DNA of 64,000 nt from a virus. Taxonomy: Duplodnaviria; Caudoviricetes. The stretch spans positions 1 to 64,000 of IMG/VR virus record IMGVR_UViG_3300028048_000096, one strand, 5' to 3'. A program made the translations under genes and the position numbers. A model generated the notes under the pieces. That model did no database searches, was not told where the DNA came from, and saw nothing but the letters and a program-made list of their open reading frames with translations. How positions within the stretch are numbered: the stretch's first letter is position 1; each line of letters opens with the position of its first letter. Of the stretch, positions 8,511 through 8,653 are shown in pieces.

Positions 8511-8653
8511 TGGCTGGGGTGGCTAGGTTCGAACTAGCGCATACGGGAGTCATGGACGGAAAAGGGAGCATCGAACTCTCATTACTTTAAAAGCGTTCTA
8601 CCAATTAAACTATTCTCCGAAGTCCCGTGCCTTAACCGCTTGGCTACACCCCA
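8511..8653 (-). tRNA. trnQ: tRNA-Gln(TTG) interrupted after U34 by a 67 nt tRNA-like insert
   Basis: Exons 8653-8620 (34 nt) and 8552-8511 (42 nt) join into a 76 nt tRNA with CGGGA-CTTTGAC-TCCCG. Confidence 0.88.
8553..8619 (-). ncRNA. Mini-tRNA (putative intron) nested in tRNA-Gln
   Basis: CGGAGAA-TA-GTTT-AATTGGTA-GAAC-GCTTTTAAAGT-AAT-GAGAG-TTCGATG-CTCCC-TTTTCCG-T-CCA. Confidence 0.8.

What the first reader, a model, noticed from the sequence alone, without database searches (positions are those of the whole stretch)
8511..8653. tRNA inside a tRNA: tRNA-Gln(UUG) carries a CCA-ended mini-tRNA as an apparent intron after U34
Seen in sequence: removing 8553-8619 gives a 76 nt tRNA-Gln (CTT|TGAC). 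The 67 nt insert is itself tRNA-shaped: 7 bp acceptor stem, full D arm, TTCGA T-loop, U-CCA end, and an anticodon arm shrunk to a stub. Its first and last nucleotides coincide exactly with the exon borders. It has no group I/II core and no bulge-helix-bulge. Established: RNase P cuts 5' of an acceptor stem (upstream piece 3'-OH), RNase Z-type enzymes cut at the tRNA 3' end (downstream piece 5'-P), and Rnl1 joins 3'-OH/5'-P ends in anticodon loops. Inference: a new intron class excised by ordinary tRNA-end maturation enzymes and sealed by the phage ligase. This could make the tRNA conditional on the ligase or hide its anticodon from anticodon nucleases. Caveat: B. subtilis-type RNase Z disfavours CCA-containing precursors, so the enzyme making the 3' cut is unidentified.
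Basis: partly seen in the sequence, partly recalled or inferred. Interest (0 to 1): 0.97.

Follow-up and report, generated by a model that had tools for sequence, protein, structure and literature searches.

The report
tRNA-shaped intron splitting phage tRNA-Gln
The only glutamine tRNA gene of this ~100-kb phage is split inside its anticodon by a 67-base insert that is itself shaped like a small tRNA; this recurring, barely described kind of phage tRNA intron is probably cut out by ordinary tRNA-trimming enzymes and resealed by a phage RNA ligase, but nobody has shown this.

Summary
On the minus strand, 8653-8511 is a tRNA-Gln(UUG) gene interrupted between nt 34 and 35 by a 67-nt insert (8619-8553). 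The insert alone passes the Rfam tRNA threshold and ends in UCCA. A second gene, tRNA-Leu(UAA) at 11037-10894, carries a 57-nt insert of the same design at the same position.

- **Boundaries:** sister phages hold intron-less tRNAs at the same loci, which fixes the Leu boundaries to the base.
- **Shared design:** 16 distinct inserts from 19 phage contigs plus this window have the same geometry. Each has a 7-bp stem starting at the first insert base, a 5-bp/7-nt hairpin, and an NCCA tail that abuts exon 2. Covariation is heavy.
- **Function:** the exons stay intact, and these tRNAs read the phage's commonest Gln and Leu codons. The insert therefore almost certainly has to be removed.
- **Ligase link:** 17 of 19 intron-bearing records encode an ATP-dependent RNA ligase (Rnl1 here, another family elsewhere), against 2 of 12 matched controls.

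No RNA data could be obtained. The enzyme that makes the 3' cut is unknown, and splicing is inferred.

The class is not new. Lak-phage papers noted such introns in 2019 and 2026, and this scan has reported it on many other phage genomes. I file this as a new member of a known, mechanistically unexplained kind.

The parts
8620..8653 (-). tRNA-Gln(UUG) exon 1: acceptor 5' strand, D arm, anticodon stem 5' strand, C32 U33 U34
   Evidence: Rfam tRNA alignment
8553..8619 (-). 67-nt tRNA-shaped insert (intron). Acceptor 5' strand 8619-8613; D arm 8610-8595; 3-bp stub 8593-8585; T stem-loop 8580-8564; acceptor 3' strand 8563-8557; tail UCCA 8556-8553
   Evidence: Rfam tRNA 37.9 bits on the insert alone; geometry shared with 15 other inserts
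8511..8552 (-). tRNA-Gln(UUG) exon 2: U35 G36 A37 C38, anticodon stem 3' strand, T arm, acceptor 3' strand, G73, encoded CCA
11003..11037 (-). tRNA-Leu(UAA) exon 1 (second split tRNA of the same design)
   Evidence: ARAGORN with introns allowed; alignment to intron-less orthologues
10946..11002 (-). 57-nt insert in tRNA-Leu(UAA): 7-bp stem (one C-A mismatch), GNRA hairpin, 5-bp stem with 7-nt loop GGCAGCA, tail UCCA
   Evidence: clean 57-nt gap against L001 and L114 orthologues; geometry
10894..10945 (-). tRNA-Leu(UAA) exon 2
3..383 (-). N-terminal part of a T4 Rnl1-type RNA ligase gene, cut off by the contig end
   Evidence: PF09511 at 30.9-31 bits, above the cut-off
2037..2513 (-). P-loop kinase of the polynucleotide-kinase type (AAA_33), in the same gene string as the ligase
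   Evidence: PF13671 E 6e-23
1165..1719 (-). calcineurin-type phosphoesterase (candidate RNA 3'-end healing enzyme)
   Evidence: PF12850 and phrog_547

Best explanation
The 67-nt insert is a genuine intron of a recurring phage class, the tRNA-shaped or minihelix-CCA introns. They sit between nt 34 and 35 of otherwise intact phage tRNAs.

Proposed route:
- The pre-tRNA folds as two nested tRNA shapes.
- Host RNase P treats the insert as a small pre-tRNA and cuts just 5' of its acceptor stem. This leaves exon 1 ending in U34 with a 3'-OH.
- A second endonucleolytic cut directly after the insert's CCA frees exon 2 with a 5'-phosphate. The enzyme is not identified. Candidates are host enzymes that can cut right after CCA, such as Thermotoga-type RNase Z or RNase E.
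- The two halves stay held together by the tRNA body. The phage's ATP-dependent RNA ligase (Rnl1 here) seals the anticodon loop.

Shown: the anatomy, its conservation and covariation, the exact boundaries, the intact exons, and the statistical link to RNA ligases. Inferred: every enzymatic step.
For: 1. Anatomy. The insert alone scores as tRNA (37.9 bits). It starts at base 1 of a 7-bp stem and ends NCCA against exon 2.
2. The same design occurs in tRNA-Leu(UAA) of this genome. Intron-less orthologues in L001 and L114 give a clean 57-nt gap with no boundary ambiguity.
3. For 16 distinct inserts anchored only by the exon borders, the acceptor stem is 97.3% paired and the T stem 98.8% paired, with 3-6 pair types per position (8 at the last acceptor pair). 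Shifted registers give 34-63%. The last T-stem pair is G-C in 16/16, as in real tRNAs.
4. These are the features of a bacterial RNase P substrate: a 7+5 bp stack, U at -1, G at +1 in 14/16, A73 in 13/16, and CCA. This is my reading of established RNase P work. The RCCA dependence of small substrates is stated in PMC12710915.
5. When CCA was not required in the search, 13 of about 15 true split tRNA-Leu(UAA) genes still ended in NCCA. Three host tRNAs (L034, L051, L246) lack an encoded CCA while their inserts have it.
6. The exons are intact and covary across at least 15 diverged genes. CAA is 76% of Gln codons and UUA is 51% of Leu codons, and there is no second Gln or Leu(UAA) tRNA gene.
7. 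An ATP-dependent RNA ligase is present in 17/19 intron-bearing records, including all 10 that are at least 86% complete. It is present in 2/12 control phages with an intact tRNA-Leu(UAA). RtcB is found in none of the intron-bearing records.
8. Enzymes that cut exactly after an encoded CCA are known: T. maritima tRNase Z (PMC1540738) and E. coli RNase E on tRNA-Pro (PMC5291269).
Against: - There is no RNA evidence.
- The 3' cut has no assigned enzyme. The host is unknown, and common RNase Z enzymes are inhibited by CCA.
- This insert has C at +1 and U73, which is not the RNase P optimum.
The two large control phages that have ligases carry no such introns, so ligases clearly have other uses.
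- The kinase and phosphoesterase next to the ligase would be unnecessary for 3'-OH/5'-P ends. They fit a rival chemistry equally well.
- Two related inserts seen in passing (L100 tRNA-Ile, L102) appear to end in CAA/AA rather than CCA.
Confidence: 0.45

Rival explanations
1. A dedicated, still unknown endonuclease (phage or host) recognises the minihelix and cuts both junctions. It leaves 2',3'-cyclic phosphate and 5'-OH ends. The phage kinase and phosphoesterase heal these ends before the ligase seals them, as in the T4 Pnkp-Rnl1 repair route.
For: A polynucleotide-kinase-like gene and a phosphoesterase gene lie in the same gene string as Rnl1 here. A kinase-HD protein or a Metallophos protein sits next to the ligase in two other intron-bearing phages.
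Against: No splicing-endonuclease family is present in the phage. Two neighbouring unknown ORFs are not shared with the other intron-bearing phages. The healing enzymes are equally explained by repair of anticodon-nuclease damage or of the HDV-like ribozyme cuts seen in this tRNA cluster. The insert geometry is that of an RNase P substrate.
Confidence: 0.2
2. The excised mini-tRNA is the selected product, for example a decoy or sponge for tRNA-directed host defences or tRNA-end enzymes. Nesting it in an essential tRNA merely guarantees co-expression, and splicing still has to happen.
For: CCA is kept in the insert even where the host tRNA gene lacks an encoded CCA. The stems are conserved by covariation. 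This insert keeps a full D arm and T loop able to form a tRNA elbow. The same cluster holds another anticodon-less tRNA-like RNA (8185-8265).
Against: The inner parts of the inserts vary freely in length (8-42 nt) and sequence. Sister phages do without the inserts. CCA and the stems are also what RNase P needs.
Confidence: 0.15
3. The insert is a selfish or accidental insertion that is not removed, and the gene is a dead or dying tRNA gene.
For: Presence and absence vary between close relatives. The whole tRNA-Gln gene looks swapped relative to sister phages: 64% identity inside flanks that are 83% and 97% identical.
Against: Exons are intact with compensatory changes in at least 15 diverged intron-bearing genes. 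The insertion site and geometry are constant. These are the only genes for the phage's commonest Gln and Leu codons.
Confidence: 0.07
4. The insert is a self-splicing or self-cleaving RNA.
For: Group I introns occupy the same 34/35 site in bacterial tRNA-Leu(UAA) (established knowledge). Weak HDV-like matches occur elsewhere in this cluster.
Against: No ribozyme or intron family matches the insert even at permissive thresholds. Family members are as short as 43 nt, 24 of which are in two plain stems, which leaves no room for a catalytic core.
Confidence: 0.03

Closest known systems
'Enigmatic' tRNA introns of Lak megaphages (Devoto et al. 2019, PMC6784885, Fig. 4 and Table S6); the remark is repeated for jumbo phages in PMC13037316 (2026)
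   Same: Short ORF-less inserts in the anticodon region of phage tRNA genes. One was noted as possibly encoding a tRNA. Alleles with and without the intron exist.
   Different: Those papers give no geometry, no boundaries tied to the tRNA shape, no mechanism and no link to a ligase. This case is in a ~100-kb phage that uses the standard code. The Lak tRNA-Tyr intron shown in Table S6 does not obviously end in CCA (not analysed further).
Group I introns in bacterial tRNA anticodon loops, e.g. cyanobacterial tRNA-Leu(UAA) (my own knowledge)
   Same: Same host tRNA and the same site after U34. Patchy presence among relatives.
   Different: Those are self-splicing ribozymes of 200 nt or more with a conserved core. 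Here the inserts are 43-68 nt, have no core and no Rfam match.
Archaeal and eukaryotic tRNA introns (bulge-helix-bulge, splicing endonuclease, then RtcB or Trl1 ligase) (my own knowledge)
   Same: Protein-dependent cutting and ligase-dependent joining of tRNA halves held together by the tRNA body.
   Different: Those sit mostly at 37/38, need a BHB motif, give cyclic-phosphate ends and use a dedicated endonuclease. Here there is no BHB, the site is 34/35, no endonuclease family is present, and RtcB is absent from all intron-bearing phages examined.
tRNA-like elements released by tRNA-end enzymes, e.g. mascRNA from MALAT1 by RNase P and RNase Z; minihelix model substrates of bacterial RNase P (my own knowledge; RCCA dependence in PMC12710915)
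   Same: An acceptor/T-arm stack, with or without the other arms, is enough for tRNA-end enzymes to cut. The CCA matters for small substrates.
   Different: Those cuts release an RNA from a longer transcript. They are not followed by rejoining of the flanks into a functional tRNA.
T4 Pnkp-Rnl1 repair of tRNA-Lys cut in the anticodon loop by PrrC (my own knowledge)
   Same: A phage-encoded kinase/phosphatase plus Rnl1 acting on a nick in a tRNA anticodon loop. The same gene set lies beside this tRNA cluster.
   Different: That is a repair reaction after host attack, not removal of an encoded insert.

Membership tests
tRNA-shaped (minihelix-CCA) introns of phage tRNAs | Sits in the anticodon loop of an otherwise complete tRNA gene; joining the flanks restores a 7-nt loop | tested here: met
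   The spliced product is tRNA-Gln(UUG), 76 nt. The site is 34/35, as in all 6 members that my geometry scan of about 1.2 Mb of phage DNA recovered and in this tRNA-Gln once the scan was relaxed.
tRNA-shaped (minihelix-CCA) introns of phage tRNAs | First insert base is base 1 of a 7-bp acceptor-like stem whose 3' strand ends 4 nt before exon 2 | tested here: met
   7/7 pairs here, one of them G-U. The family is 97.3% paired, against 35-46% in shifted registers.
tRNA-shaped (minihelix-CCA) introns of phage tRNAs | 5-bp stem with a 7-nt loop directly 5' of the acceptor 3' strand (T-arm position) | tested here: met
   GAGAG/CUCCC with one A-C mismatch and loop UUCGAUG. The closing G-C pair is invariant in 16/16.
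tRNA-shaped (minihelix-CCA) introns of phage tRNAs | NCCA tail abutting exon 2 | tested here: met
   UCCA at 8556-8553. 13 of about 15 split tRNA-Leu(UAA) genes found without requiring CCA have it.
tRNA-shaped (minihelix-CCA) introns of phage tRNAs | Removed from the RNA to give a working tRNA | not testable with these tools
There is only indirect support from intact, covarying exons and codon use.
Rfam tRNA (RF00005), applied to the insert itself | Score above the gathering threshold with all four arms | tested here: inconclusive
   37.9 bits against a threshold of 29, but the anticodon arm is a 3-bp stub with a 3-nt loop. It is tRNA-shaped but cannot decode.
Group I / group II self-splicing introns | Conserved catalytic core detectable by a covariance model | tested here: not met
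   No match at E up to 10 on the insert or E up to 1 on 5000-12000.
Bulge-helix-bulge introns | BHB motif at the junctions and a splicing endonuclease | tested here: not met
   The junctions flank a 7-bp stem, with 3 nt unpaired on the 5' side and 8 nt on the 3' side. PF01974 is absent from the phage. Presence in the host could not be tested.
Bacterial RNase P substrate (works-like comparison, not homology) | 12-bp acceptor/T stack, unpaired U at -1, G at +1, RCCA 3' tail | tested here: inconclusive
   The stack, U-1 and CCA are present. This insert has C at +1 and U73 instead of the optimum. The family consensus is G+1 in 14/16 and A73 in 13/16.

The most novel reading that the evidence does not exclude
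Phages of bacteria possess a further, protein- and RNase P-dependent tRNA splicing pathway. The intron is a miniature pre-tRNA whose two ends are made by the cell's ordinary tRNA 5'- and 3'-end machinery. The exons are joined by a phage ATP-dependent RNA ligase. The phage's key tRNAs would then mature only where that ligase is present.
Probability: 0.4. Interest if true: 0.88.

Novelty: new member of a known kind. Interest (0 to 1): 0.68.

Why it matters
Bacterial and phage tRNA introns known to be spliced are self-splicing group I introns. If this class is removed by RNase P, a 3'-end nuclease and an RNA ligase, it would be a further route of tRNA splicing. It would also give phage RNA ligases and end-healing enzymes a routine job beyond repairing host-inflicted damage.

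This window offers a compact test case: two such introns, the ligase cassette, and sister phages without the introns. The comparative data gathered here supply concrete, falsifiable predictions for a bench test. These data are the fixed geometry, the CCA kept even when the host tRNA lacks one, the exclusive association with 3'-OH/5'-P ligases, and the absence of RtcB.

Tried and rejected
- **Phage database:** a BLAST search of the region found nothing.
- **Exact junction:** the exon-intron junction sequence is absent from IMG/VR outside this record.
- **Same intron elsewhere:** no relative carrying this same 67-nt intron was found, so its own covariation could not be measured. Only family-level covariation is available.
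- **Origin of the insert:** it is not a close copy of any tRNA in this phage or its relatives (best local match about 24 nt).
- **Phage-encoded cutters:** the phage has no RNase Z/metallo-beta-lactamase, splicing endonuclease or CCA-adding enzyme. A metallo-beta-lactamase match occurs in only 1 of 17 other intron-bearing records.
- **Neighbouring unknown ORFs:**
  - ORFs 387-1115, 2963-3556 and 3773-5461 have no PDB, Pfam or PHROG match.
  - 387-1115 and 2963-3556 are not shared with the other intron-bearing phages.
- **Exon 2 as a ribozyme:** I considered that exon 2 plus the downstream spacer forms an HDV-like ribozyme cutting after the insert's CCA. I rejected this because there is no Rfam match and no complementary strand in the Leu case.
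- **RNase P making both cuts:** rejected, because the only helix starting near U35 would place the cut 4 nt away.
- **Bacterial and archaeal genomes:** scanned for the tRNA-Gln pattern; 0 of 107 pattern hits were split tRNAs.
- **False intron calls:** two ARAGORN intron calls in L119 were tandem tRNAs.

Full report
**What is there.** The window is the first 64 kb of a 100,766-bp IMG/VR phage record (35% G+C, 86% complete). A cluster of RNA genes runs on the minus strand from about 11040 to 5700. It holds a dozen or so tRNA or tRNA-like genes, a ROOL RNA (9006-9609, 279.5 bits) and weak HDV-like ribozyme matches.

Within the cluster, 8653-8511 reads as a tRNA-Gln(UUG):
- Exon 1 is 34 nt and ends C32-U33-U34.
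- Exon 2 is 42 nt, begins U35-G36-A37-C38 and ends G73-CCA.
- The two are separated by 67 nt (8619-8553).
- Joining the exons gives a standard 76-nt tRNA-Gln, with the U1-A72 pair and G73 typical of bacterial tRNA-Gln.
- The insert alone passes the Rfam tRNA threshold (37.9 bits, E 2.3e-7). It matches the acceptor stem, D arm and T arm, and only a 3-bp stub stands for the anticodon arm.

**A second case and exact boundaries.** tRNA-Leu(UAA) at 11037-10894 is split at the same place, after U34, by 57 nt (11002-10946). That insert also runs from the first base of a 7-bp stem to a UCCA tail.

Related phages carry the same gene order: phosphoesterase, tRNA-Leu, tRNA-Met, ROOL, a 106-aa ORF, then tRNA-Gln.
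- Their tRNA-Leu(UAA) genes (L001:1367-1451, L114:13450-13536) align to the window's gene with one clean 57-nt gap between CUU and AAAA. No other placement is possible. One anticodon-stem pair is changed on both sides.
- At the tRNA-Gln locus, L114 and L119 have an intron-less tRNA-Gln. The flanks are 83% and 97% identical to the window, but the tRNA itself is only 64% identical. The whole gene has therefore been exchanged.
- L115 has an intron-less tRNA-Gln that is 80% identical to the window's joined exons.

**A family with fixed geometry.** Pattern scans of IMG/VR retrieved 19 further contigs:
- 6 contigs carry tRNA-Gln(UUG) with a CCA-ended insert after U34.
- 13 contigs carry tRNA-Leu(UAA) with a CCA-ended insert after U34.

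With the window's two inserts, this gives 16 distinct insert sequences of 43-68 nt.

I anchored them only by the exon borders and counted pairs:

| Measure | Result |
|---|---|
| First 7 nt pairing with the 7 nt that end 4 nt before exon 2 | 97.3% of cells |
| 5-bp stem with 7-nt loop directly upstream | 98.8% of cells |
| Standard pair types per position | 3-6 at most positions (8 at the last acceptor pair) |
| Same counts in registers shifted by 1-3 nt | 34-63% |
| T-stem pair next to the loop | G-C in 16/16, as G53-C61 in tRNAs |
| Base at +1 | G in 14/16 |
| Base before CCA | A in 13/16 |

The linker between the two stems varies from 8 to 42 nt. The window's Gln insert and two Leu inserts (L247, L248) are the long, nearly complete tRNA-like forms.

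All were split after position 34.

**Is the CCA real or imposed by my patterns?** I repeated the Leu search without requiring CCA. Of about 15 genuine split tRNA-Leu(UAA) genes, 13 end in NCCA. One (L261) has a plain 44-nt hairpin and one (L285) has another tail. Three host tRNAs lack an encoded CCA although their inserts have one (L034, L051, L246). The CCA is therefore selected in the insert itself.

**Are the split genes in use?**
- ARAGORN recognises the joined exons as tRNAs in every complete case.
- Acceptor stems are fully paired (7/7) in 14 of the 17 distinct joined-exon tRNAs. Another has 6/7, and the two low values come from mis-registering of genes that lack an encoded CCA.
- In this phage CAA is 76% of Gln codons and UUA is 51% of Leu codons, the commonest Leu codon.
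- No other tRNA-Gln or tRNA-Leu(UAA) gene exists in the 100 kb.

Dead genes would not keep this. The insert is very probably removed from the RNA.

**Link to RNA ligase.** The window starts inside an Rnl1-type ligase gene (3-383, PF09511 above its cut-off). Upstream in the same gene string lie a phosphoesterase (1165-1719) and a polynucleotide-kinase-like P-loop kinase (2037-2513).

| Set | Records with an ATP-dependent RNA ligase |
|---|---|
| Intron-bearing, all 19 | 17 |
| Intron-bearing, at least 86% complete | 10 of 10 |
| Intron-bearing, the 2 without a ligase | both under 45% complete |
| Controls: phages with an intact tRNA-Leu(UAA) caught by the same exon motif | 2 of 12 |

- The ligase is Rnl1 in three intron-bearing records. 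In most others it is a PF09414 domain with a PHA02142 OB fold, often next to a kinase-HD protein, a Metallophos protein or an RlaP gene.
- None of the intron-bearing records has RtcB.
- The two control phages with a ligase contain no nested introns.

This pattern is what dependence on a 3'-OH/5'-P ligase predicts. The sample is small, large phages carry ligases more often, and several records are related. I treat the link as supportive, not as proof.

**What cuts.** The insert is, feature for feature, a small bacterial RNase P substrate. It has a 12-bp acceptor/T stack, an unpaired U at -1 and a CCA. The CCA is known to matter most for small substrates (PMC12710915; the rest from established RNase P work). 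RNase P would leave exon 1 with a 3'-OH.

The cut after CCA is the weak point.
- Neither this phage nor the other intron-bearing phages encode an RNase Z-like enzyme.
- No neighbouring unknown ORF is shared among them.
- The nuclease is therefore probably a host enzyme.
- Enzymes that cut exactly after an encoded CCA and leave a 5'-phosphate exist: T. maritima tRNase Z (PMC1540738) and E. coli RNase E on tRNA-Pro (PMC5291269).
- The host of this phage is unknown.

The kinase and phosphoesterase leave open a route through cyclic-phosphate ends. They could equally serve repair of anticodon-nuclease damage, or clean-up after the HDV-like ribozymes in this cluster.

**What is known.**
- Devoto et al. 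2019 reported 'enigmatic' introns in Lak megaphage tRNAs and noted that one may encode a tRNA.
- A 2026 jumbo-phage survey repeats the remark.
- Neither paper describes the geometry or proposes a mechanism.
- I found no paper that does. The theta-ribozyme paper does not mention introns.
- This scan has already reported the same class on many other phage genomes. None of those reports had RNA evidence.

**Verdict.** I file this instance as a new member of a known but mechanistically unexplained kind.

Noticed in passing
window 10894-11037 (-): A second split tRNA, tRNA-Leu(UAA), with a 57-nt UCCA-ended insert after U34. Its T-like loop GGCAGCA also occurs in the inserts of L246, L250 and L256, and in the phage's own tRNA at 7991-8063.
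   Followed up: yes
window 8185-8265 (-): An 81-nt RNA that matches only the tRNA-like ends of the tmRNA model (56.7 bits), with a G3-U70 pair and no mRNA-like part. A weak HDV-like ribozyme match (8131-8189) follows directly. It is an anticodon-less, alanine-type tRNA mimic of unknown role.
   Followed up: no
window 9006-9609 (-), 9606-9676 (-): A ROOL RNA (279.5 bits) sits in the middle of the tRNA cluster, preceded by a weak HDV-like ribozyme match. ROOL is kept at the same place in L114 and L115.
   Followed up: partly
window 8411-8510 (-); L114:15816-15915: The 100-nt spacer directly 3' of tRNA-Gln is about 97% identical in the window, L114 and L119, although the tRNA next to it was exchanged. 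It can be closed by a UAAGAG/CUCUUA helix. This is a candidate structured RNA with no Rfam match.
   Followed up: partly
L114:15740-15815, L119 (same locus): The intron-less tRNA-Gln of the sister phages has an unusual T loop (AGCAUUA) and is only 64% identical to the window's tRNA-Gln, inside near-identical flanks. The whole tRNA gene was replaced.
   Followed up: partly
window 7991-8063 (-): A tRNA missed by ARAGORN (Rfam 37.5 bits), with anticodon loop CCUGGGA (C at position 33) and T loop GGCAGCA.
   Followed up: no
window 6304-7153 (-) vs L001:845-1565: The related phage L001 has four extra tRNAs (Cys, Ile-UAU, Phe, Leu-UAA) between tRNA-Arg and tRNA-Thr. The window has about 850 nt there with no detected tRNA or long ORF.
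   Followed up: no
L261 (insert of 44 nt in tRNA-Leu(UAA)); L100 tRNA-Ile(UAU) insert of 73 nt; L102 insert in a probable tRNA-Asn: Other insert types at or near 34/35. L261 has a plain long hairpin without CCA. L100 and L102 have minihelix inserts that seem to end in CAA or AA instead of CCA.
   Followed up: partly
window 3-383 (-): The Rnl1 gene is cut by the contig start. The syntenic position in L001, after the homologue of ORF 387-1115, holds only small unknown ORFs and no ligase within 5 kb.
   Followed up: partly
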